Origin: Candidatus Shapirobacteria bacterium CG_4_10_14_0_8_um_filter_39_15
Lineage (GTDB): Bacteria > Patescibacteriota > Microgenomatia > UM-FILTER-39-15
NCBI GenBank assembly: GCA_002784465.1
Contig: PFLE01000011.1
Coordinates: 3,966-67,965, forward strand
Length of the DNA stretch: 64,000 nt
Direction of reading: 5' to 3'
Made by a program: the position numbers and the translations under genes. The notes under the pieces were generated by a model. It did no database searches. It was not told the DNA's origin and was given only the letters and a program-made list of their open reading frames with translations. This document shows positions 23,629 through 33,853 of this stretch, piece after piece. Positions within the stretch are counted from its first letter, which is position 1. Each line of letters starts with the position of its first letter.

Positions 23629-23739
23629 GATTTTTGTTTAAATAAATTAATCTTTTCTCAACTTCCGGATATTTTATTTAAGTAATTTAACCCCTTGACA
23701 ACTTTCGTATTTCTTTCGTATAGTATATCTACAATTAAA

Positions 23740-25173
23740 ATGAAAATCAAGACCCTTACACCTAAACAAAAGAAAGTACTCGATTTTATAAACAAATTCA
23801 TCAAAAAGAACGGTTATTCTCCATCCTTGGAAGAAATGGCTAGTTACCTAAAATTGAATTCGGTCTCTACGGTTCATCAATTTATAGAAATCCTAAAAAA
23901 CAAGGGTTATATTAACAAGGAAGAAAATAAACCCCGATCAATTACCTCTGGATTTACCGAAATCCCCCTTTGTGGTTATATTGCAGCAGGCGAACCAATA
24001 GAGGCAATTTCTAATCCTCAACCGTTCAAGATTCCACAGGCTATCGTTAGTAAGACTGGCTTTTATTACGCTTTAAAAGTTAGAGGAAATAGTATGGTTG
24101 AAGACTGTATATATGATGGAGATACAATAATAATTAAACATCAAGATACCGCTGAAAATGGACAAAAAGTAGTGGCTCTAATTGACAATCTTGAAGTAAC
24201 TCTCAAAAAGATTTATAAAGAGAATGGGAAAATTAGATTACAACCGGCAAATCGAAACATGAATCCTCTCTTTGTCGATCCCTCAAGAGTAATTATTCAA
24301 GGAATAGTAATAGATATTCTTAAAAATAAGTCGATCGTTTCGGAGACGCCACTTATAGATCATACCGCACGACATATAAACACTAACCCCAAAGATCTAG
24401 GTGAATTATTGAATCAGGTAATAGAAGGTGACTGTCTTGAGGTGATGAACAGTATACCAAATAAATCCATCGATATGATATTATGTGATCTCCCTTATGG
24501 AAATACTCAAAACAACTGGGATAGTGTTATTCCGTTAGATAAACTTTGGTCGCACTATGAACGAGTTATTAAAAATAACGGCGTAATCGCTTTAACCTCT
24601 CAAGGATTATTTACTGCCAAATTAATTTTGAGTAATCCAAAACTGTTTAAATATAAAATCGTTTGGATTAAATCTAAATCTACCAACTTCTTAAATGCCA
24701 AAAAACAACCATTAAGACGACATGAAGATATTTGTATTTTCTACAAAAACCAACCGTCTTATAATCCTCAAATGTCACCCGGGGAACCTTATAATAAAGG
24801 TTTCAGAAAAAATCAACTTACGGGGAGTTATGGTGATTTTAATTCAGTCGAGGTTAAAAGTGACGGCTTACGTTATCCTACAGATGTCGTTTACTACAAA
24901 ACCGCAGAAAGCGAAGGAAAAGTATTTCACCCGACCCAAAAACCAGTAGAACTGGGAAGGTATTTGATTAAAACGTTCACAAAAACAGGCGATATTGTTT
25001 TAGACAATACTTGTGGCAGTGGTAGTTTCCTTGTTGCAGCAATCTTGGAAAAAAGACGGTTTATTGGGATCGAAAAAAATCAAGAAACATTCTTACATAA
25101 AAAACAGAGGGTTAACTATATCGAAATATGCAAAGAAAGAATAGAAAAAGCTAGAAAAGAACTAAAGAAATAA
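23740..25173 (+). CDS. fusion protein: LexA-like wHTH/S24 autopeptidase (N-terminal) plus beta-class DNA N6A/N4C methyltransferase (C-terminal)
   Basis: One uninterrupted ORF (track 23695..25173; ATG at 23740 preferred). Residues 1-200 are a paralogue of lexA: CGYIAAGEPIEA cleavage motif, GNSM Ser, TLKKIY Lys. Residues ~215-477 carry DLPYG (motif IV), then HPTQKPVEL, then NTCGSGSFLVAA (motif I), which is the PF01555-type order. Confidence 0.8.
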   Translation: MKIKTLTPKQKKVLDFINKFIKKNGYSPSLEEMASYLKLNSVSTVHQFIEILKNKGYINKEENKPRSITSGFTEIPLCGYIAAGEPIEAISNPQPFKIPQAIVSKTGFYYALKVRGNSMVEDCIYDGDTIIIKHQDTAENGQKVVALIDNLEVTLKKIYKENGKIRLQPANRNMNPLFVDPSRVIIQGIVIDILKNKSIVSETPLIDHTARHINTNPKDLGELLNQVIEGDCLEVMNSIPNKSIDMILCDLPYGNTQNNWDSVIPLDKLWSHYERVIKNNGVIALTSQGLFTAKLILSNPKLFKYKIVWIKSKSTNFLNAKKQPLRRHEDICIFYKNQPSYNPQMSPGEPYNKGFRKNQLTGSYGDFNSVEVKSDGLRYPTDVVYYKTAESEGKVFHPTQKPVELGRYLIKTFTKTGDIVLDNTCGSGSFLVAAILEKRRFIGIEKNQETFLHKKQRVNYIEICKERIEKARKELKK

Positions 25174-28314: not shown

Positions 28315-28420
28315 TTGAAGTATTTTAGCAGATTTTAGAAGAAAATAAAAGTGCAGTACCGGAAGAATATCAAAACAACAAGAAAGTTGTACTTTTCTTA
28401 TTATTGAACCCCTCCGGTAC

Positions 28421-30403
28421 TTAGAAGTTCACAACTGGACCGTCGTATGTAATCTTACCCATATTGATGATCACAACGCGAGAAGCAGTCTTTGCCACCT
28501 GCTGGTCATGGGTAACGATTACGACGGCGATTCCTTTTTGTATCAGTGCTTGTACTAAATCTAGAACTTTGGCAATTCCGTCTGCATCAAGCCCGATGGT
28601 TGGTTCGTCTAGAATCAGGACTTGAATTCCCGCGGTTGAGGCAGAAATCGCGAGCATTTCTACTTCACTTGGATGAAGATCCAATGGACAGCTTAGTGGT
28701 TCCAAACCGGTCCAATCAATTCCTTCCGTAACGAACGCTTCAATTCTACCCGAATCCCAATGTTGTATTTTAGGACTGAACGAAAGTTCGTCATTCACTG
28801 TCATTGAGATAGTTTGAAGAGAGGCATTTTGAAAGACGTAGCCGACTCCTCCTCTCGCCTTGACATTTCCCTTGATTGGCTTAATTGCACCGGCAAGAGT
28901 CAGCATCGCAGTTGTTTTTCCGGAACCATTAGGTCCCATAACAACCACAAGTTCGCCTTCTCTTAAGTCTAGCGAGATGCCGTTAAGAATTGCTGTTCCG
29001 TCTAGCTCCACATAGACATTGTCCATTTTAGCGATAATCTCTCCCGGAATAACAGACATTGGTGGCCGGAATTCGCGTAGAAGAGAGTATCGGGAAAGCA
29101 TCTCTTCGGTGAAGAACTCTCCGGGAAGAACATCCTGCGCAATTGTTCCTTTTTCTAGGGTAACTACCCGTGTAACAAAAGGTTTTATTTCACTCCAAAA
29201 GGGATCAGCGATTATCACGGTGCAAGGATTTTGAACGAGGAAATCCTTAAGAGCACTCAAGAATTCCTGCCGTCCTTGCGGATCAAGTTCCTGCATTGGG
29301 GAATCAAAAAGAAGAATTTTTGCTGTAGAAGCGAGAATTCCGGCAAGAACAAGCCGAACTTGCTGTCCTCCCGAAAGTTTAGTTATCTCCTTTTCCCACA
29401 AATCCCCGATTCCCATTATCTCAAGGGTTCTTCGTGCACTGATTTCGTTTTCGGCGAGGAAAGTTATCTCCTGCCCAACAGTGAGTCCGTGAAACGAAGC
29501 AAAGGGATCCGGGGATATATAACGGACTGATCCGGAAAGTTTTGCTAGGGACGTATTCATCGTATTCATCCCTGATGCAGTAACGCTTCCCATGAATTCG
29601 CCCATAATTGAACTGATAATACCCCCTACTACCCTAAGGAGCGTCGTTTTTCCAGATCCCGACCTCCCTGCTAGGTAGATAAATTCTCCACCATCAACCC
29701 TTAGGTTAATTCCCGTCAATACATCCGGAAGGAGGGGCGAGTAGCGAACATGTACGTCATTCAGAATAAGATCCCCATTTCCTTCAGGCTTTGTTCGTGT
29801 ATGCGATAAGCTGGCGGCTGCTCCTTTCTGAGTGTTGTCTATCACTCGAGGAATTATCGCCATTGCAAGTGGAATGAGATTCCTAATACTGGCGATTGGC
29901 GAATCCCACTTCAGCCCACGAATGATAAGCGATTGCGTGAGAGCCACAAACTCTCTTTTGATAATCTGGACCCCTCGAAGAATTGTCAAAACCCAAGGTT
30001 CTGCAGGTTTTATCCAGGATAATCCTTCGTACATCTCTGGAAGAGAGGTAGAAAGAAGCCAGGCAAACGAGATAAGCATCGCCCCGATGATTCTTGTCCC
30101 CATCACCAATCCTCTCTCGAAACCTGCTTGGTTCACTGTGAAAACTAACCATTGCCAGCCGCCATGACCTCTAGCGGAGAAAATCACGTTATAGAAAAAC
30201 ATCATCGCCCCGGTAATGGGAGCAGCTAAAACCAACTTCCAATTCCGATTTTCGCCCACAAGATAAATTACAATTCCAACAAGAAGGAAAAGGATTGCAC
30301 CCGGAATGTTGTTAATGAAAATGTAGAGACAACCGCTGGTGAAAACGACTACCAGCCTCACTCTTGGTGATAGAAAAGACAAACCTCTCTTCCTCGTCTT
30401 CAT
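28421..30403 (-). CDS. fused ECF-transporter T component (CbiQ/EcfT) plus two ABC ATPase domains (EcfA/EcfA')
   Basis: N-terminal multi-TM EcfT-like region, then Walker A GRSGSGKTT and signature LSGGQQ, then a second Walker A GPNGSGKTT. GC is far above the genome background. Confidence 0.75.
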   Translation of the reverse strand: MKTRKRGLSFLSPRVRLVVVFTSGCLYIFINNIPGAILFLLVGIVIYLVGENRNWKLVLAAPITGAMMFFYNVIFSARGHGGWQWLVFTVNQAGFERGLVMGTRIIGAMLISFAWLLSTSLPEMYEGLSWIKPAEPWVLTILRGVQIIKREFVALTQSLIIRGLKWDSPIASIRNLIPLAMAIIPRVIDNTQKGAAASLSHTRTKPEGNGDLILNDVHVRYSPLLPDVLTGINLRVDGGEFIYLAGRSGSGKTTLLRVVGGIISSIMGEFMGSVTASGMNTMNTSLAKLSGSVRYISPDPFASFHGLTVGQEITFLAENEISARRTLEIMGIGDLWEKEITKLSGGQQVRLVLAGILASTAKILLFDSPMQELDPQGRQEFLSALKDFLVQNPCTVIIADPFWSEIKPFVTRVVTLEKGTIAQDVLPGEFFTEEMLSRYSLLREFRPPMSVIPGEIIAKMDNVYVELDGTAILNGISLDLREGELVVVMGPNGSGKTTAMLTLAGAIKPIKGNVKARGGVGYVFQNASLQTISMTVNDELSFSPKIQHWDSGRIEAFVTEGIDWTGLEPLSCPLDLHPSEVEMLAISASTAGIQVLILDEPTIGLDADGIAKVLDLVQALIQKGIAVVIVTHDQQVAKTASRVVIINMGKITYDGPVVNF

Positions 30404-30484
30404 ATCTGCCTCCTAGAATACGTGGGACCGGACAGGCCAAATTGGGAACTGTCCGATCCCACTGACTAATGGAACCCAACAATG

Positions 30485-31270
30485 TTATTCGGCAATGCCG
30501 GCCTGGCGCAGGCGAAGGGTATATAGGGGTAAGAGGAACAACCCCAAGACGGCGGAGACCGTATCCCCCACAAACCAGCCGACACCAGGATCGATTAAGG
30601 CTGCCTCGATTGGTTTGCCACCCACGTAGGCTGCGAAGGCACCGATCAGCGCACTGACTCCACAGGCAACGACGGCAATGTCCACCGCGAGAACAAAGTG
30701 ATCCATGTTCAGGTTTCTGCCAACGTTCCCCAGGATGACGGGCACGCCCACCACCAGAACGATAAGGGGCAGAGCCAGACCCCAAGGGGATGGCAAAGCC
30801 AGAACAATATTGACCAGACCCGCCGCCATGACCGCCAGAGCGAGCACGACGACGCGAACGGCCCCGTTCAGCACGTCATACGGATCTTTGCAGCCGAACG
30901 TAGGATCAAGTCTTAACATTCGGAACAGAAGGGCAGGCAGCATTGCGTTGGCAAACCCGCCGGCAATGGGATTCTGGATGATGTCCGTAATACCCCATCC
31001 GCCATACGCGAAAATACCGGCTGTATACGCACCGAGTCCGCCTGCCACCGCTCCGAGCCATGGTCCAAGCCAGATTCCCGCGACCAACTGCAAGGCCGCA
31101 GGTAACCAGATGAAGCTCGCCCCCTTCACAGAGGGTGACGAACCAACGGTTATCATGACCCAACCGATCGCGGCGATGGCCACTGCCAGAAAGCCGGCGA
31201 AGGTGTAGCGTAGAACCGGGTCACGTCGTGCAACGTACGTCTTAGAACTTGCCATTGGAATTTCCTCCAT
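30485..31270 (-). CDS. integral membrane protein, putative ECF S-component (substrate capture subunit)
   Basis: 261 aa rich in Ala/Gly/Val/Leu with multiple TM helices. It lies between the ECF T/A gene and a 5-FCL-family gene. Other ORFs overlapping this GC-rich stretch are spurious. Confidence 0.45.
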   Translation of the reverse strand: MEEIPMASSKTYVARRDPVLRYTFAGFLAVAIAAIGWVMITVGSSPSVKGASFIWLPAALQLVAGIWLGPWLGAVAGGLGAYTAGIFAYGGWGITDIIQNPIAGGFANAMLPALLFRMLRLDPTFGCKDPYDVLNGAVRVVVLALAVMAAGLVNIVLALPSPWGLALPLIVLVVGVPVILGNVGRNLNMDHFVLAVDIAVVACGVSALIGAFAAYVGGKPIEAALIDPGVGWFVGDTVSAVLGLFLLPLYTLRLRQAGIAE

Positions 31271-31284
31271 TTTACTAACTTTTT

Positions 31285-32055
31285 TTACAGCTGAGAAGAA
31301 AGCCTGGTCGGCATACCTACCACCTCCTCCTGCATCGCCTGAAGCTCCCGAAGCGGAGGGATTGACCCCAACATTCCTGGCTGGAGACTATCCCAAACCA
31401 CCCCAAGAGTGGGTTTGTGCGGCTCGTCGACCTTGATCATCCTTCTCGGAGTGCAAATCAGATCACAAGCCGTGTCGAATGGATCGGCGGAGAATTGCTC
31501 GGTGACCACCTGGCAGTCATGAACAACTGCGACTACCGGTGTTTTGGCACTGACGACGCCGATTGAATAGAACATGGCCCATTCAAGATCGAAATAGCCA
31601 TGCCCTTTACCAATACGAATCCCTCCGATTGTTACTGCCCCTGTTCCGGTCACTAACAAGTCAATTTTGCCGAATATGCTTTTGATGCTTTGGAGTGATA
31701 TGATAGCACCTTCGTTTTCCATGCCATCCAGGGTAGCGGCATAAAGGTACCGGCTTTTTGGGATACCAGGACCGAGAAGAACAAACCCCCTCCGAATTCC
31801 ATATGTAGAAACAATGATCGTTTTTTCTTGCCATAAAGCATGGTAGCGCAACCTTTCCAAACAATTATCCGGGGTGATGAAGACAGTATCTGCCTGTCTC
31901 CAAAAATCGCTCCTTATTAACCGACCCAGGGCTTGACCGCTTCCTACAAAATCCGCGATAAATTCACCCAGATCCATGTCGAATCGGCTATCGGGACGAG
32001 CAACCCCCTTCCTTAACTTCTCAAAAACTGCTTGCCTGACTTCATTCTTATCCAT
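31285..32055 (-). CDS. 5-formyltetrahydrofolate cyclo-ligase-family (MTHFS-like fold) protein
   Basis: IGKGHGYFDLEW matches the GxGxGYYD motif, and ITPDNCLERLR is N-terminal-like. 256 aa. Confidence 0.5.
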   Translation of the reverse strand: MDKNEVRQAVFEKLRKGVARPDSRFDMDLGEFIADFVGSGQALGRLIRSDFWRQADTVFITPDNCLERLRYHALWQEKTIIVSTYGIRRGFVLLGPGIPKSRYLYAATLDGMENEGAIISLQSIKSIFGKIDLLVTGTGAVTIGGIRIGKGHGYFDLEWAMFYSIGVVSAKTPVVAVVHDCQVVTEQFSADPFDTACDLICTPRRMIKVDEPHKPTLGVVWDSLQPGMLGSIPPLRELQAMQEEVVGMPTRLSSQL

Positions 32056-32175
32056 TACTCCTCCTTCATAAAATTAATACATTTCACAGGCTAGCTCTCT
32101 ACCTCTGAACAACTTTTCGGATGCAGAGCGCTAACCTGTATATTTGTTAAAGTACAATGTTTTTATCCACCAAAA

Positions 32176-32207
32176 AAGCGCCTCTTATTGGCGCTTCCTA
32201 GTAAACA
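32176..32207 (-). terminator. Rho-independent terminator downstream of purF (bidirectional hairpin AAGCGCC-tcttatt-GGCGCTT flanked by A6/T6)
   Basis: On the minus strand, a 7-bp GC-rich stem followed by TTTTTT. Confidence 0.5.
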
Positions 32208-32437
32208 AAAACCTAATTAAAGGAAATTTTTCAACTGAAAAAAAATTTCGAACGGCCAATTTATGTATTTTCATCTTGCGGCCGGACAGTTTACAAGAAT
32301 TATTATTCTGACAATTACAAACTATAACACTGTGAAAAAGTTGTCAAGGGGCAATTATGCCCCTAGCCGTAACCATCCCCGAATTTTTGTCTCCAGATTT
32401 TTATCTGTTAATCTTTTTTTTTGATTATTTTCATTTT

Positions 32438-33853
32438 CTAGTCAAATTTATTCTTATTGGCTGTAAAAGAAGAAACAGGATATTTTCCGGTCGCGCACCC
32501 TAAACATAAACCATATTCTTTTTTAACCGTTTCGTTAACAACTTGGGAAAATTCCTCAACTGAAAGATAATTTAGCGAATCAACCTCTAGAGATTTGGCA
32601 ACTTGATTTATTTTAACCATTTCTTTTGCTATTAGCTTGTCACTGTCATTAATGTCTGTCCCTAATGGACAATAACCAATAACCGGCGGGAAAATAATTC
32701 TAAGATGTATTTTTTTAGCTCCACCATTCCGTAAATCTCCAATCCTTCTTCTTATCGTTTGCACAACCCCCCTGGTCGTTGTTCCGCGAATAATCGAATC
32801 GTCAACGATGGCGATTTCTTTCCCTTGAACAATATCGAAGGGGTGATAATTTCCATTGGCAACTTCTTTTCTCGTCTCATGGTTGGGATTAATAAAACCG
32901 CGAATTGCTCCATTGATGCTTCCGTAACGATTTTTCAACATTGACGTTTTTAAATCTATGGGTTTCCCCCAAAGTTCTGATAACCCTTGGGTAAAACCTT
33001 CTGATGCTGATTTTGCTGATTCAGCAATATAGGTCACAAAATCAATCGTTTTTGGAGGAGGATATAGTTCTACCAATTTTTTCCCAAGATTTCTTCTAAG
33101 TTTGTTAAAAATAATCATTTCGCCGGGTTTAACCTCTCTTTTATAGGAAATCTCTAAATTATTAAACGCTGATGATTCCGAAGATATGGCATAACCAGTT
33201 ATTTTATCTTGGGTAAATTCGGCATACGATAACGGACGATTACCGTATTTATCCCTAATGGCAATGATTGAATTTTTGGTAGCAAAAATTAAACAAAAGG
33301 ATCCCTCTAGTACGGGAAGACACTTCTCAATTTTGGTAATTAGACTTTTACCCGGTAAAGATAGAATTAAAGAACCAATAATTTCACTATCAGTTGTGCT
33401 AGAAAAAGAAAACCTCTTTTTTACAAGGATTTCTTTTAGCTGCGGGGCGTTTGTTATGTTTCCATTATGGGCAACAGCAAACGATCCTTTTGGTGAATCA
33501 AATAAAAAAGGAGCGGCATTTTTTAATGAAGACGAACCCGTTGTTGAATATCGGGTATGGGAAACAGCTAAATACCCCTTTAAATTTTGCTTAATATTTT
33601 CTTCACTCTCCAAATAAGTATTATATAAATTTCGTACTAAACCCATTCTTTTGAAAACCGCTGATAATTTTCGGCCATCACCAACAACAATTCCCGCCGA
33701 TTCCTCACCTCGGTGTTGCAAGGCCAATAATCCGGAAAGAGTAGAAGTTACGATCGTGTTTGAAAAATCCGGGTGAGGAAAAAATATACCAAATACCCCA
33801 CATTCTTCATGCGGATGATCAATATAAATTTTATTTGAATATAATATCTTCAT
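32438..33853 (-). CDS. purF: amidophosphoribosyltransferase
   Basis: Ntn-type Cys in CGVFGIF after a short leader. PRTase motif IAIVDDSIIRGTTTRG. 471 aa. Confidence 0.9.
   Translation of the reverse strand: MKILYSNKIYIDHPHEECGVFGIFFPHPDFSNTIVTSTLSGLLALQHRGEESAGIVVGDGRKLSAVFKRMGLVRNLYNTYLESEENIKQNLKGYLAVSHTRYSTTGSSSLKNAAPFLFDSPKGSFAVAHNGNITNAPQLKEILVKKRFSFSSTTDSEIIGSLILSLPGKSLITKIEKCLPVLEGSFCLIFATKNSIIAIRDKYGNRPLSYAEFTQDKITGYAISSESSAFNNLEISYKREVKPGEMIIFNKLRRNLGKKLVELYPPPKTIDFVTYIAESAKSASEGFTQGLSELWGKPIDLKTSMLKNRYGSINGAIRGFINPNHETRKEVANGNYHPFDIVQGKEIAIVDDSIIRGTTTRGVVQTIRRRIGDLRNGGAKKIHLRIIFPPVIGYCPLGTDINDSDKLIAKEMVKINQVAKSLEVDSLNYLSVEEFSQVVNETVKKEYGLCLGCATGKYPVSSFTANKNKFD

What the first reader, a model, noticed from the sequence alone, without database searches (positions are those of the whole stretch)
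28330..32210. High-GC (~50-58 %) island carrying a fused ECF transporter, a putative S-component and a 5-FCL-family gene: probable horizontal acquisition
Composition jumps abruptly from about 35 % GC (rplS) to about 50-58 % across 28421..32055.

The three ORFs are a fused EcfT-EcfA-EcfA' gene, an Ala/Gly/Val-rich polytopic membrane protein in the S-component position, and a 5-formyl-THF cyclo-ligase-family protein. The last carries the GxGxGYYD-like motif IGKGHGYFD.

The high GC creates many spurious opposite-strand ORFs in the track. The left boundary has nested inverted repeats: GTACCGGAAG...CTCCGGTAC and AAGAAAGTTGTACTTTTCTT at 28350-28415. The right boundary has a bidirectional terminator and a GGGGCA-ATTA-TGCCCC hairpin.

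A vitamin or folate-type ECF uptake module imported from a high-GC donor would be an adaptive gain for an auxotrophic, host-dependent cell.
Basis: partly seen in the sequence, partly recalled or inferred. Interest (0 to 1): 0.5.

Follow-up and report, generated by a model that had tools for sequence, protein, structure and literature searches.

The report
Borrowed nutrient-uptake cassette in CPR bacterium
A three-gene import-and-processing cassette with foreign-looking DNA composition sits in the purine-salvage region of a tiny symbiotic (CPR) bacterium, behind a previously undescribed switch-like RNA leader; it has been exchanged with Chloroflexi, but not recently, and more likely handles a purine-like compound than folate.

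Summary
Genes at 28421-32055 (minus strand) have 46/58/49 % GC against 38.8 % for the window. GC3 is 0.43/0.64/0.51 against 0.335±0.054.

It is not an assembly chimera: more than 12 independent contigs carry the same junctions.

Horizontal exchange with Chloroflexota (Anaerolineae) is supported:
- the same cassette occurs in about 15 Anaerolineae MAGs;
- CPR copies are not monophyletic;
- relatives lack it.

It is not recent. No homologue outside this organism's own population exceeds 80 % identity, and divergent CPR genomes carry it in the same slot between an adenine-PRTase gene and rplS.

The "folate" reading is not supported: the enzyme scores far below the 5-FCL equivalog cut-off.

The boundary inverted repeats are a terminator and part of a 5' leader, not insertion scars.

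That leader is a conserved, covarying pseudoknotted RNA with no Rfam match. In sister genomes it precedes purine nucleoside and nucleobase transporters and salvage enzymes. In other phyla the same S-component family pairs with Qng1-like, GTP-cyclohydrolase-II-like and NADAR enzymes.

Best reading: a purine- or guanine-derived-compound salvage importer.

The parts
28336..28421 (-). Intrinsic-terminator-like element directly after the stop codon of the EcfTAA' gene. It is a long imperfect hairpin (28355-28421) followed by a U-rich tail (UGCACUUUUAUUUUCUUC).
   Evidence: Sequence. RNA fold: -31.6 kcal/mol, z -6.9, 0 of 200 shuffles as stable. The simple terminator scan missed it because the loop exceeds 8 nt.
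28421..30403 (-). Fused energy-coupling module EcfT-EcfA-EcfA' (660 aa).
- EcfT/CbiQ is about aa 1-205, with two XRG coupling motifs (ILRG, IIRG).
- NBD1 is about aa 215-440: Walker B is LLFDSP with no catalytic Glu, there is no H-loop His, and the signature LSGGQQ is canonical.
- NBD2 is about aa 455-660: Walker A, Walker B and H-loop are canonical, and the signature LHPSEV is degenerate.
- The result is one consensus and one degenerate ATP site.
   Evidence: Pfam CbiQ 54.6 bits and ABC_tran 119 bits in two stretches. ECF_ATPase_1/2 are the best NCBIfam models, below their equivalog cut-offs. The motif asymmetry is conserved in 91 homologues.
30485..31270 (-). Substrate-capture (S) component of a new family (261 aa, or 256 from the second ATG). 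It has about 8 helices and an AxxxA motif (A29-A33) in helix 1. The core is very conserved: KGASF(L/I)WLPAALQL..GVWLGP, AYGGWG..DII.NPIAGG.AN, GWF.GDT.S.
   Evidence: - No Pfam or NCBIfam hit. Weak PF07155/PF12822 hits in a few members.
- AF2 model pLDDT 87.1, pTM 0.83.
- Alignments A1 and A7.
31285..32055 (-). 5-FCL-family paralog ('FCLL', 256 aa), first gene of the operon. It keeps the N-terminal K/R residues and the R-x-G-K-G-H-G-(Y/F)-F-D loop. It carries family-specific motifs FITPDNC, TLDGME and VVHDCQ, plus a roughly 50-aa C-terminal extension.
   Evidence: - PF01812 44.6 bits, cut-off 27.
- TIGR02727 29.2 bits, cut-off 84.9.
- No PDB sequence hit at E<=1.
- AF2 pLDDT 83.7.
- Alignment A2.
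32056..32139 (-). Proximal 5' UTR: a long hairpin (32086-32139) followed by a Shine-Dalgarno-like GAAGGAGGAG just before the FCLL start codon. It is conserved in the window's closest relatives (L011, L118), with base changes that keep pairing.
   Evidence: Fold of 32056-32170 (-): -31.9 kcal/mol, z -3.5. Alignments A4 and A5.
32172..32316 (-). Conserved structured leader RNA, a candidate riboswitch or attenuator. Its order is:
1. 5' CAGAAUAAUA;
2. P1 hairpin (UCUUGU/GCAAGA);
3. loop ending GGCC;
4. A-rich linker ..AUAAAUU;
5. GGCC, forming a pseudoknot with the loop;
6. a U-run;
7. a variable hairpin;
8. an intrinsic terminator (GCGCC..GGCGC + U6, 32172-32194).

   Evidence: - nhmmer and covariance-model hits in 27+ related CPR loci, and one in the window.
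- 97.2 % of cells paired; 11 of 14 pairs with two-sided changes; 0 of 500 shuffles as good; slid controls 43-68 %.
- Pseudoknot third pair is G-C 17, A-U 7, A.C 1; 0 of 5000 shuffles as good.
- Whole leader fold z -6.0.
- No Rfam family at E<=1.
32319..32347 (-). Promoter-like element for the leader and operon: TTGACA (32342-32347), a 17-nt spacer, then TAGTTT (32319-32324). The relatives have TAACTT as the second hexamer. Sequence conservation with relatives starts exactly at the -35 box.
   Evidence: Alignments A5 and A8: TTGAC is invariant in 21 sequences and the upstream sequence cannot be aligned. The consensus scan did not call it in the window, because the -10 matches only 3 of 6.
32348..32363 (-). 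GGGGCA-UAAU-UGCCCC hairpin, 75 nt downstream of the purF-like stop and directly 5' of the -35 box. It may be a weak terminator of the upstream gene. It is not conserved in relatives.
   Evidence: Sequence. Fold -14 kcal/mol, z -2.3. Absent from L011 and L118.

Best explanation
**What it is**

The region is one transcription unit:
1. promoter;
2. structured leader RNA ending in a terminator;
3. the 5-FCL-paralog enzyme (FCLL);
4. a new-family S-component;
5. fused EcfT-EcfA-EcfA';
6. a terminator.

**How it most likely works**
- The S-component captures a small solute outside the cell.
- It docks through its AxxxA helix on the EcfT domain.
- It is toppled by ATP binding and hydrolysis at the single consensus ATP site. 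This site is built from the NBD2 Walker motifs and the NBD1 signature; the other site is degenerate.
- The cytoplasmic FCLL then processes the imported compound, probably in an ATP-dependent step on an N-formyl or amide group.
- Transcription is probably gated by the leader RNA.

**Shown**
- gene identities and folds;
- operon layout;
- conservation and covariation of the leader;
- conserved cassette order in more than 20 genomes.

**Inferred**
- transport direction;
- the enzyme's chemistry;
- ligand control.

**Substrate**

The substrate is most likely a purine- or guanine-derived base or nucleoside, rather than folate.

**History**
- The cassette belongs to a family shared by Chloroflexota (Anaerolineae), ANGP1-type bacteria and one Microgenomates (CPR) clade.
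- It has crossed between these phyla more than once.
- In the CPR clade it occupies a variable cargo slot between an adenine-PRTase gene (plus the leader RNA) and rplS.
- The raised GC and GC3 of all CPR copies favours entry from higher-GC donors with incomplete amelioration.
- In this lineage the event is old and the cassette is fixed.
For: **Transporter**
- Pfam and NCBIfam domains.
- An AxxxA motif in helix 1. The literature ties this motif to EcfT docking (PMC11109136).
- XRG motifs and the ATP-site asymmetry are conserved in 91 homologues.

**Cassette**
- The order FCLL, then S, then EcfTAA' holds in L011 and L013-L027 (except L019, whose contig ends after the S gene), L035, L048, L103, L118 and L119.

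**Not a chimera**
- Identical junctions occur in ENA, JGI, Logan and NCBI assemblies.

**HGT**
- GC3 and codon outliers.
- Concatenated S+EcfTAA' identity is 58-62 % for the window against other CPR clades, and 71-75 % for CPR L023 against Anaerolineales and L119. The L19 proteins of the two CPR hosts are only 45 % identical.
- L023 groups with L119 plus Anaerolineales at 96 % bootstrap.
- About 14 of 21 syntenic relatives lack any cassette.
- GC3 of L011 and L118 (0.59/0.74/0.52) exceeds the window's, at similar flank GC for L118 (0.37-0.38; 0.43 upstream of L011).
- Bacteroidota copies match the GC of their hosts.

**Purine link**
- The slot neighbours are an apt-type PRTase (NF005592, 180 bits), XPRT-like, guaA, purA, purB, MTA-nucleosidase and purF-like genes.
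- In sister genomes the same leader RNA precedes: Bmp/PnrA-like binding proteins; a PNP+Bmp fusion; a PNP/MTAN-like enzyme; an NMT1-type binding protein; a xanthine/uracil permease; and a PurA fusion.
- In Alphaproteobacteria FCLL sits with NMT1-type and BMP-type ABC importers.
- In other phyla the S-component family pairs with Qng1-like, GTP-cyclohydrolase-II-paralog and NADAR N-glycosidase genes.
Against: **Substrate**
- No substrate was tested, and the S-component has no characterised relative (at most 20 % identity to solved ones).
- The partner enzymes point to several chemistries (queuosine, riboflavin intermediates, formyl compounds). 'Purine-like' is only a common denominator.
- The leader's regulon also includes proteins of unknown function and a LysM protein.

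**Direction of transfer**
- It is not settled. In the concatenated NJ tree three CPR lineages are basal to an Anaerolineales clade.
- In L119 the cassette has lower GC3 than its high-GC host. Both suggest CPR-to-Chloroflexota transfer.
- All CPR copies show nearly the same GC3 pattern (about 0.5/0.65/0.45). This includes the deeply divergent type B, which is 25-30 % identical in the S and EcfTAA' proteins.
- That uniformity could mean a maintained compositional state rather than an amelioration snapshot.

**Method limits**
- The trees are neighbour-joining on few taxa.
- For the window lineage no specific donor can be named.
Confidence: 0.6

Rival explanations
1. Folate module. The S-component imports 5-formyl-THF (folinate) or another folate, and the adjacent enzyme is a working 5-formyl-THF cyclo-ligase that feeds it into the one-carbon pool.
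For: - PF01812 membership and a 5-FCL fold.
- The ATP-loop motif R-x-G-x-G-x-G-(Y/F)-F-D and the N-terminal K/R residues are conserved.
- FolT-type S-components are among the structural neighbours.
- The logic suits a folate auxotroph.
- 5-formyl-THF shares the 2-amino-4-oxopyrimidine ring with the substrates of the other partner enzymes.
Against: - TIGR02727 scores 29 bits against a cut-off of 84.9.
- Identity to solved 5-FCLs is 13-18 %.
- The family fits the COG0212 paralog listed as 'Not a 5-FCL enzyme... lacks detectable 5-FCL activity' (PMC3223725).
- There is no THF riboswitch or any other Rfam hit.
- The regulon and neighbours are purine salvage, not one-carbon metabolism.
Confidence: 0.12
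2. Thiamin-pyrimidine salvage. The cassette imports a thiamin breakdown product or precursor (of the formylaminopyrimidine or HMP type), and FCLL acts on it. This follows the published link of the 5-FCL paralog to thiamin metabolism.
For: - The literature links the paralog to thiamin salvage through gene clustering and co-expression (PMC3223725; PMC4120688).
- FCLL lies next to NMT1/THI5-like binding-protein ABC importers in Alphaproteobacteria and another genome.
- The best structural hit of the S-component is the protein first named HmpT.
Against: - No TPP riboswitch and no thiamin genes occur next to any of the roughly 40 cassettes examined.
- In CPR, an NMT1-type binding protein is one of several purine-type cargo genes behind the same leader RNA. 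The NMT1 neighbour therefore need not mean thiamin.
- Structural similarity at 14 % identity says nothing about substrate.
- I could not verify membership in the published paralog family by direct sequence comparison.
Confidence: 0.12
3. Queuosine or 7-deazaguanine precursor salvage. The S-component family imports queuosine, queuine or preQ bases, and the variable partner enzymes free or convert the base.
For: - A Q_salvage/Qng1-like gene (PF10343, 196-206 bits) lies directly downstream of S+EcfTAA' in three Bacteroidota loci.
- The N-terminal half of the S-component is about 70 % identical between those loci and the window.
- Many Q-precursor transporters are still missing, and ECF QrtT/QueT types are known (PMC11130926).
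Against: - No preQ1 riboswitch hit.
- Most non-Chloroflexi copies pair with a GTP-cyclohydrolase-II paralog rather than Qng1.
- No known Q-pathway step needs a 5-FCL-like enzyme.
- The CPR regulon consists of ordinary purine-salvage genes.
Confidence: 0.15
4. No horizontal transfer into this lineage. The cassette is ancestral to the CPR clade, or even to a CPR+Chloroflexota ancestor. It was lost many times, and its high GC is held by selection.
For: - The same slot is used in divergent CPR genomes.
- GC3 is nearly identical in all CPR copies, including type B.
- The cassette is fixed in the population.
- No mobility genes or repeats lie at the borders.
- The phyletic range (Chloroflexota, ANGP1, CPR) matches lineages that some rooted phylogenies place together (from my own knowledge, not tested here).
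Against: - CPR copies are not monophyletic: L023 groups with Anaerolineales at 96-100 % bootstrap.
- Cross-phylum identity (71-75 %) exceeds CPR-to-CPR identity (58-62 %), and far exceeds that of the flanking L19 (45 %).
- Bacteroidota and Saccharibacteria homologues carry host-like low GC3, so high GC3 is not intrinsic to the family.
- L119 shows a compositional mismatch in the opposite sense.
Confidence: 0.15
5. Assembly artefact: a high-GC fragment from another organism was joined into a CPR contig.
For: Sharp composition change at both ends.
Against: - The same three genes, with the same flanks on both sides, occur on at least 12 contigs from ENA, JGI, Logan and NCBI assemblies of different samples.
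- The upstream leader RNA and promoter are host-type elements conserved in related CPR genomes.
- Syntenic copies exist in other CPR MAGs.
Confidence: 0.01

Closest known systems
Group I (dedicated) ECF transporters with their own T and A genes, such as YkoEDC, CbrTUV, QrtTUVW and BioMNY
   Same: The S-component gene sits next to its own energising module. The S-component fold, the AxxxA helix-1 motif, the CbiQ-type T domain with two XRG motifs and the two ABC ATPase domains are all present.
   Different: - T, A and A' are fused in one 660-aa polypeptide.
- One ATP site is degenerate throughout the family.
- The S-component matches no Pfam or NCBIfam family and has about 8 helices instead of 6.
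- A soluble enzyme gene is a fixed part of the cassette.
5-formyltetrahydrofolate cyclo-ligase (MTHFS/YgfA, EC 6.3.3.2)
   Same: Same Pfam family and fold. The glycine-rich R-x-G-x-G-x-G-aromatic-aromatic-D loop and the N-terminal basic residues are conserved.
   Different: - It is about 250 aa rather than about 190.
- It fails the equivalog model: 29 bits against 84.9.
- Identity is 13-18 %.
- It has its own invariant motifs with Cys, His and Asp (FITPDNC, VVHDCQ) and a C-terminal extension.
COG0212 '5-FCL-like' paralog (Arabidopsis At1g76730 type), linked in the literature to thiamin salvage; biochemical function unknown
   Same: - It is annotated as 5-FCL but is not one.
- It occurs in bacteria, in archaea (a Halalkaliarchaeum plasmid, 42 % identity) and in a fungal MAG (55 %).
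- It clusters with NMT1/THI5-type transporter genes (PMC3223725).
   Different: - Membership could not be checked against the reference sequences.
- Here the partner is an ECF importer of a new family.
- The context is purine salvage, not thiamin genes.
Purine-responsive riboswitch regulons (guanine/adenine class upstream of xpt-pbuX, pbuG, nupG, pur genes)
   Same: A conserved structured 5' leader with an intrinsic terminator precedes purine base and nucleoside transporters and salvage enzymes in many genomes.
   Different: - There is no match to the purine class or any other Rfam family at E<=1.
- The architecture is a hairpin plus a 3-4-bp H-type pseudoknot with an A-rich linker, closer in outline to preQ1-I-like pseudoknots than to the three-way junction of purine riboswitches. 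That comparison is from memory.
- The ligand is unknown.
Compositionally deviant genomic islands acquired by recent HGT
   Same: GC, GC3, codon-usage and tetranucleotide deviation; patchy presence among relatives.
   Different: - There is no integrase, tRNA target, direct repeat or mobility gene.
- No near-identical donor was found.
- The same slot is used in divergent relatives.
- The borders are regulatory elements.

Membership tests
ECF transporter (group I, dedicated module) | Membrane S-component with the characteristic S-component fold | tested here: met
ECF transporter (group I, dedicated module) | AxxxA motif in helix 1 for docking on EcfT | tested here: met
   A29-V-A-I-A33 in the window protein. 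The AVAIAA block is conserved in most of 28 homologues. The motif's role is taken from PMC11109136.
ECF transporter (group I, dedicated module) | EcfT (CbiQ-family) scaffold with two coupling-helix X-R-G/S motifs | tested here: met
   PF02361 54.6 bits, aa 8-197. ILRG and IIRG are conserved in 91 homologues.
ECF transporter (group I, dedicated module) | Two ABC ATPase domains (EcfA, EcfA') | tested here: met
   Two ABC_tran stretches. ECF_ATPase_1/2 are the best NCBIfam models at 197 and 195 bits, below the equivalog cut-offs of 315 and 330. One composite ATP site is degenerate.
ECF transporter (group I, dedicated module) | ATP-driven uptake of a specific solute | not testable with these tools
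   Needs uptake or binding assays.
5-formyltetrahydrofolate cyclo-ligase (EC 6.3.3.2) | Score above the curated equivalog model for bacterial MTHFS | tested here: not met
   TIGR02727 29.2 bits against 84.9; NF007661 17.4 against 343. No PDB 5-FCL found by sequence at E<=1.
5-formyltetrahydrofolate cyclo-ligase (EC 6.3.3.2) | 5-FCL fold and nucleotide-loop motif | tested here: met
5-formyltetrahydrofolate cyclo-ligase (EC 6.3.3.2) | Conversion of 5-formyl-THF to 5,10-methenyl-THF | not testable with these tools
   Enzyme assay or ygfA complementation is needed.
COG0212 5-FCL-like paralog (At1g76730 type) | PF01812 member that is not a 5-FCL orthologue and is present in all three domains | tested here: met
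   Bacterial hits, an archaeal plasmid hit (42 %) and a fungal MAG hit (55 %).
COG0212 5-FCL-like paralog (At1g76730 type) | Clustering with thiamin-type (NMT1/THI5-like) transport or metabolism genes | tested here: inconclusive
   NMT1-type ABC importers flank it in Martelella, Roseinatronobacter and GCA_035911095. No thiamin enzymes or TPP riboswitches were seen.
COG0212 5-FCL-like paralog (At1g76730 type) | Direct sequence relationship to the reference proteins (Arabidopsis, Haloferax) | not tested
Recently acquired genomic island | Composition that deviates from the host at synonymous sites | tested here: met
   GC3 z +1.7/+5.7/+3.3; codon chi-square ranks 5, 1 and 2 of 38; tetranucleotide z up to 8.
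Recently acquired genomic island | Mobility signatures at the borders (integrase, tRNA, direct repeats) | tested here: not met
   The ORFs called at and next to the borders are rplS and the purF-like gene. The nearest tRNAs are 13 kb or more away. The border repeats are a terminator and a leader RNA. No separate direct-repeat search was run.
Recently acquired genomic island | Near-identical copy in a donor lineage, and absence from close relatives | tested here: not met
   The best homologues outside the organism's own population are 63-80 % identical and are themselves CPR. Every contig with the identical L19 that extends upstream carries the cassette. More distant relatives lack it.
Riboswitch (for the leader RNA) | Conserved structure supported by covariation | tested here: met
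   P1 and terminator: 97.2 % paired, 11 of 14 pairs with two-sided changes, 0 of 500 shuffles as good. The sequences with the second and third P1 forms were not in the model seed. Pseudoknot pair: G-C 17, A-U 7.
Riboswitch (for the leader RNA) | 5' position before functionally related genes, with an expression platform | tested here: met
   It is followed by an intrinsic terminator, then transporter or salvage genes of purine metabolism, in 20 or more loci.
Riboswitch (for the leader RNA) | Direct, selective ligand binding that changes gene expression | not testable with these tools
   Needs in-line probing, ITC and termination assays. A protein-dependent attenuator or an sRNA cannot be excluded.

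The most novel reading that the evidence does not exclude
The island is one arm of an undescribed purine-salvage system of ultrasmall bacteria, with three parts.

1. The leader is a new riboswitch class sensing a purine-type ligand.
2. The new S-component family imports ring-opened or formylated purine precursors. Candidates are formamidopyrimidine (Fapy/FAPy-type) or formamido-imidazole compounds, as base or riboside.
3. The 5-FCL paralog is an ATP-dependent cyclo-ligase that closes the imidazole ring to regenerate a purine.
   - The chemistry mirrors 5-formyl-THF to 5,10-methenyl-THF.
   - In other phyla a GTP-cyclohydrolase-II paralog, NADAR or Qng1-like enzymes would process the same import differently.

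This would also assign a function to the COG0212 paralog, which the literature read here still lists as of unknown function (PMC4120688).

The probability given is for the whole reading. The 'new riboswitch class' part alone I put near 0.5.
Probability: 0.12. Interest if true: 0.9.

Novelty: new variant of a known kind. Interest (0 to 1): 0.62.

Why it matters
**1. Nucleotide supply in Patescibacteria.** How these bacteria obtain nucleotides is an open question. [quoted passage not shown] A leader-controlled set of interchangeable purine-type importers, including this ECF cassette, is a concrete and testable candidate.

**2. An orphan enzyme.** The cassette ties an enzyme family without an assigned function (the 5-FCL paralog) to a dedicated importer of a new S-component family.
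- In other phyla that importer swaps FCLL for Qng1-like, GTP-cyclohydrolase-II-like or NADAR enzymes.
- This narrows the substrate search to guanine-derived heterocycles, and makes the family's function directly testable.

**3. A new RNA motif.** The leader RNA is a well-supported structured motif with no Rfam counterpart.

**4. An unusual ATPase design.** The fused EcfTAA' with one degenerate ATP site is not a design I know from characterised ECF transporters.

**5. A caution for HGT calls.** A strong compositional island need not be recent, and its 'boundary repeats' may be regulatory RNA.

Tried and rejected
**Searches that led nowhere**
- The genome-collection scan with the purF-like neighbour found no relatives.
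- The cluster look-up gave no organism names.
- The afdb50 fold library was unavailable, so the Arabidopsis paralog could not be compared.
- The original 5-FCL-paralog paper could not be opened by DOI, PMID or PMC id.
- phmmer of FCLL against PDB gave nothing.
- A literature search for a newer function of the paralog found none.
- Rfam searches of the window, the island and 22 related loci gave no riboswitch at the cassette. The one FMN riboswitch, in L017, belongs to a neighbouring NMT1-type ABC operon.

**Readings considered and rejected**
- *Boundary inverted repeats as insertion or recombination scars.* They are a terminator and a leader RNA that is present in relatives without the cassette.
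- *A small ORF (29 aa, starting at the ATG in the leader).* The ATG is not conserved, and substitutions show no third-position bias (my reading of alignments A5 and A8).
- *High GC explained only by Ala/Gly/Val-rich composition.* GC3 is raised too, and Bacteroidota homologues with the same motifs have GC3 of 0.21-0.32.
- *The adenine-PRTase as part of the mobile cassette.* It has host-like GC3 and no homologue next to the Anaerolineae cassettes.
- *L011 as a candidate high-GC donor.* It and L118 have lower-GC flanks than the cassette (0.37-0.43), the same leader RNA and, in L118, rplS downstream. They are CPR relatives.

Full report
**1. Observation**

The window has 38.8 % GC.

- Between 28350 and 32100, 300-nt windows rise to 0.44-0.47, then to 0.51-0.60 (peak 30450-31350). 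They return to 0.36-0.38 after 32100.
- No other 1-kb bin in the 64 kb exceeds 0.47.
- Three minus-strand genes fill the interval: 28421-30403 (660 aa, 46 % GC), 30485-31270 (261 aa, 58 %) and 31285-32055 (256 aa, 49 %).
- The deviation is not only an amino-acid effect. GC3 is 0.43, 0.64 and 0.51 against 0.335 ± 0.054 for 54 other genes.
- Codon-usage chi-square ranks the three genes 5th, 1st and 2nd of 38, and tetranucleotide distance reaches z = 8.
- The motif IGKGHGYFD, the overlapping opposite-strand ORFs, and the inverted repeats at both ends are all present.

**2. Source, and whether it is an artefact**

- The 660-aa protein is identical to a protein of Candidatus Shapirobacteria bacterium CG08_land_8_20_14_0_20. 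This is a Microgenomates-group CPR bacterium.
- At least 12 contigs carry the identical 5-FCL-like protein, and 12 carry the identical L19. They come from ENA, JGI, Logan and NCBI assemblies of different samples.
- Every contig long enough to show the junctions has the same gene order. A chimeric assembly is excluded.
- The cassette is fixed in this population.

**3. The genes**

*The 660-aa protein* is EcfT (CbiQ, 54.6 bits) fused to two ABC ATPase domains.
- Across 91 homologues, NBD1 lacks the catalytic Glu (LLLD[SA]P) and the H-loop His, but keeps LSGGQQ.
- NBD2 has canonical Walker A, Walker B and H-loop, but a degenerate signature (LHPxxx).
- The family therefore has one consensus and one degenerate ATP site.

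*The 261-aa protein* has no Pfam or NCBIfam match.
- It has an AxxxA motif in helix 1. The literature associates this motif with docking on EcfT (PMC11109136).
- It is therefore an S-component of a new sequence family, with about two extra helices.

- Identity to solved 5-FCLs is only 13-18 %.
- It scores 29 bits on the 5-FCL equivalog model, whose cut-off is 84.9.
- Its family has bacterial, archaeal and fungal members.
- In Alphaproteobacteria it sits beside NMT1/THI5-type ABC importers.
- I could not compare it directly with the reference sequences.

**4. A conserved cassette**

- The order FCLL, then S, then EcfTAA' recurs in about 15 Anaerolineae/Anaerolineales MAGs and in two 'Bacillati bacterium ANGP1' MAGs.
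- It also recurs in one Patescibacteria MAG (L023) and in one low-GC contig labelled Gammaproteobacteria (L020).
- It is found in several metagenome contigs as well.
- In Anaerolineae its GC equals that of the host (GC3 0.45-0.88).
- In the low-GC hosts it is always raised.

**5. Horizontal transfer: supported, but neither recent nor simple**

*Evidence for transfer*
- The compositional outliers.
- For concatenated S+EcfTAA', CPR L023 is 71-75 % identical to Anaerolineales L013 and to L119, but only 61 % identical to the window.
- The ribosomal protein L19 of the two CPR hosts is just 45 % identical.
- L023 groups with L119 and three Anaerolineales at 96 % bootstrap. The window groups only with L011 and L118, at 100 %.
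- Relatives lack the cassette (section 6).

*Evidence against 'recent'*
- The closest homologues outside this organism's own population are 63-80 % identical.
- They are themselves CPR: lower-GC flanks than the cassette, the same leader RNA, and rplS downstream in L118.
- No donor-like sequence exists in the 5.8-billion-protein collection.
- Divergent CPR genomes carry the cassette in the same place (section 6).

*Direction*
- Direction is favoured, not proven. The raised GC3 of every CPR copy suggests entry from higher-GC donors followed by decay.
- The higher GC3 of L011 and L118 than of the window points the same way. L118's flanks (0.37-0.38) match the window's; the 449 nt upstream of L011 are at 0.43.
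- Against this, three CPR lineages are basal to an Anaerolineales clade in the tree.
- In L119 the cassette has lower GC3 (0.53-0.62) than its host genes (0.66-0.83). Some transfers may have gone the other way.

**6. The slot**

- A metagenome scan with the adjacent adenine-phosphoribosyltransferase (NF005592, 180 bits) returned 70 CPR-type loci.
- In 21 of them both the PRTase and rplS (often followed by UPF0102) are present. The interval between them varies from 1.1 to 5.9 kb.
- It holds one of the following:
  - the type-A cassette (L023/L048);
  - a deeply divergent type-B cassette, in L049, L051 and L071. This is FCLL at 44-52 % identity; a 282-297-aa protein that hhalign matches to the S-component family at 97.6 % probability; and an 785-801-aa EcfTAA' at 28 % identity;
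  - other genes such as purB, purA, an MTA-nucleosidase-like gene or a 298-aa unknown.
- L103 also carries the PRTase followed by a type-A cassette, but its contig ends before rplS.
- About 14 of the 21 loci have no cassette.
- All CPR copies, including type B, share nearly the same GC3 pattern: about 0.45-0.53, 0.59-0.66 and 0.43-0.48, against flanks of 0.25-0.40.
- That uniformity is the main argument that composition may be partly maintained rather than purely historical.
- Bacteroidota and Saccharibacteria homologues, however, have host-like GC3 of 0.21-0.32.

**7. The boundaries are regulatory, not scars**

- *Left.* The sequence after the EcfTAA' stop folds into a long hairpin (-31.6 kcal/mol, z -6.9) followed by a U-rich tail. 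This is an operon terminator.
- *Right.* Conservation with relatives begins exactly at a TTGACA box (32342-32347). It continues through about 145 nt that end in the GCGCC/GGCGC+U6 terminator at 32172-32194.
- nhmmer finds this element in 27 or more CPR loci. So does a covariance model seeded with only nine sequences of one P1 form. There is one copy in the window, and none in the Anaerolineae, Bacteroidota, L020 or L103 loci.
- Its parts, 5' to 3', are:
  - CAGAAYAAUA;
  - a P1 hairpin in three covarying forms (UCUUGU/GCAAGA, UCACCU/AGGUGA, CCUG/CAGG);
  - a loop ending RNCC;
  - an A-rich linker ending AUAAAUU;
  - GGYN, which can pair with the loop as a pseudoknot;
  - a U-run, a variable hairpin and the terminator.
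- On the model alignment, 97.2 % of cells pair and 11 of 14 pairs show two-sided changes. No shuffle of 500 reaches this, and slid controls give 43-68 %.
- The third pseudoknot pair is G-C in 17 sequences, A-U in 7 and mismatched in 1. No shuffle of 5000 matches this.
- No Rfam family matches at E <= 1.
- A coding explanation was rejected: the ATG is not conserved and there is no third-position pattern.

**8. What the leader controls**

The gene immediately downstream of the element is one of:
- FCLL, followed by the cassette, of type A or B (9 loci);
- a Bmp/PnrA-like ABC binding protein (L056, L059/60);
- a nucleoside-phosphorylase+Bmp fusion (L050);
- a PNP/MTA-nucleosidase-like enzyme (L069);
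- an NMT1/THI5-like binding protein (L073/74);
- a xanthine/uracil-family permease (L067);
- another ECF S-component-like protein (L061);
- a fusion containing adenylosuccinate synthetase (L074);
- unknowns of 298 and 364 aa, and a LysM protein.

This is the pattern of a purine-salvage regulon.
- The slot itself lies among apt, XPRT-like, guaA, purA/purB and purF-like genes.
- The same two ABC importer types (NMT1 and BMP) flank FCLL in Alphaproteobacteria.
- The conserved leader on one side and rplS on the other may explain why different cassettes end up in the same place. This is an inference.

**9. Partner swapping in other phyla**

- In Bacteroidota, S+EcfTAA' is followed directly by a Q_salvage/Qng1-like gene (L028, L029, L030).
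- In Saprospiraceae, Saccharibacteria and three further metagenome loci it is followed by a GTP-cyclohydrolase-II paralog, which scores below the RibA cut-offs.
- In two of those loci it is preceded by a NADAR/YbiA-type N-glycosidase (TIGR02464, 109 bits against a cut-off of 73.7).
- The N-terminal half of the S-component is about 70 % identical across all of these, so the substrate is probably the same or similar.
- The known substrates of these partner families, and of 5-FCL, share a guanine-derived 2-amino-4-oxopyrimidine ring. They are Q-5'-monophosphate, ribosylaminopyrimidines, GTP/FAPy and 5-formyl-THF (from my knowledge of those families; Qng1 from PMC11130926).
- That common denominator is an inference, not a result.

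**10. Mechanism, and how sure**

- I am confident (about 0.9) that this is a dedicated ECF importer operon with a new S-component family.
- I am fairly confident (about 0.7) that this lineage's cassette reflects old inter-phylum transfer.
- I hold with moderate confidence (about 0.45) that the substrate is a purine- or guanine-derived compound, and (about 0.5) that the leader is a ligand-sensing riboswitch.
- The idea that FCLL closes a formamido precursor into a purine ring is an analogy with 5-FCL chemistry and is untested (about 0.12).
- Folate, thiamin-pyrimidine and queuosine readings remain possible, each at about 0.12-0.15.

**11. Novelty and verdict**

- The compositional island is real and the gene calls were right.
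- It is not a fresh import with insertion scars. It is an old, exchanged cargo operon in a regulated purine-salvage slot.
- The new elements are the S-component family, the single-site fused EcfTAA', the fixed pairing with an orphan 5-FCL paralog, and an undescribed leader RNA.
- I file it as a new variant of a known kind, with interest 0.62.

Noticed in passing
window 32172-32347 (-); also L011 131-320, L118 76-268, L023 2631-2818, L049 7521-7717, L050 7649-7817, L061 7521-7699, L069 3158-3313, L070 1279-1453 and others: A conserved promoter, a structured RNA of about 110-150 nt (hairpin, 3-4-bp pseudoknot, A-rich linker) and an intrinsic terminator. It has no Rfam match. It lies upstream of purine base and nucleoside transporters and salvage genes in 27 or more CPR loci. 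It is a candidate new riboswitch or attenuator.
   Followed up: yes
window 28421-30403 (-), aa 364-374, 397-401 and 576-581; 91 homologues: Family-wide asymmetry of the fused ECF ATPases. NBD1 lacks the catalytic Glu and the H-loop His, and NBD2 has a degenerate signature motif. Only one of the two composite ATP sites looks catalytic.
   Followed up: partly
L028 5965-9749, L029 5977-9781, L030 813-4569, L031 4085-9430, L032 5515-9429, L120 5001-8604, L122 5001-8983, L124 5001-8991: In Bacteroidota, Saccharibacteria and unnamed metagenome contigs, the same S-component+EcfTAA' pair lacks the 5-FCL paralog. It is joined instead to a Qng1-like queuosine-salvage gene, or to a GTP-cyclohydrolase-II paralog with or without a NADAR N-glycosidase.
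   Followed up: partly
L046-L115 (for example L049 7001-12390, L064 2626-8218, L070 747-2760, L069 2626-6185): In a Microgenomates clade, the interval between an apt-type PRTase gene and rplS-UPF0102 is a variable cargo slot of 1.1-5.9 kb. It holds type-A or type-B ECF cassettes, or purA/purB, an MTA nucleosidase or a 298-aa unknown. In loci where rplS was not detected (L061, L056/L059), a third ECF type or Bmp transporters follow the same PRTase and leader.
   Followed up: partly
L119 5168-10465: In a high-GC contig (host GC3 0.66-0.83) the cassette has lower GC3 (0.53-0.62). It lies between a ComEA-like gene and a 43-aa HHH_3 fragment. This suggests an insertion coming from a lower-GC donor, the reverse of the situation in the window.
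   Followed up: no
L017 625-3445: An FMN riboswitch (87 bits) precedes an NMT1/THI5-type ABC importer (permease, binding protein, ATPase), about 1.7 kb upstream of the cassette in an Anaerolineaceae MAG. This looks like a RibXY-type riboflavin importer (recalled from the literature, not tested). Adjacency to the cassette may be coincidental.
   Followed up: no
L016 485-1979, L019 3915-5453, L026 4337-5910, L027 4333-5864; L007 3878-8750; L116 3991-7720: Many free-living carriers have two divergent 5-FCL-paralog genes (about 37-44 % identical to each other's type), either in tandem or flanking the transporter. A GntR/UTRA or MurR/RpiR regulator often lies next to them. The CPR copies keep only one paralog.
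   Followed up: no
window 23695-25173 (+): A 477-492-aa protein combines a LexA DNA-binding domain, an S24 peptidase domain and an N4/N6 DNA-methyltransferase domain (Pfam list). This is an unusual fusion.
   Followed up: no
window 32438-33853 (-): A purF-like amidophosphoribosyltransferase scores 252 bits, below the equivalog cut-off of 350. It has host-like GC3 (0.28) and is inserted between the PRTase and the leader RNA only in this lineage. One other locus (L084) has a 36 % homologue next to the PRTase.
   Followed up: no
L118 4163-4475: At the end of this Logan contig an L19 N-terminal fragment runs directly into a PRTase fragment. It may be a local misassembly or a rearrangement. It does not affect the cassette itself.
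   Followed up: no
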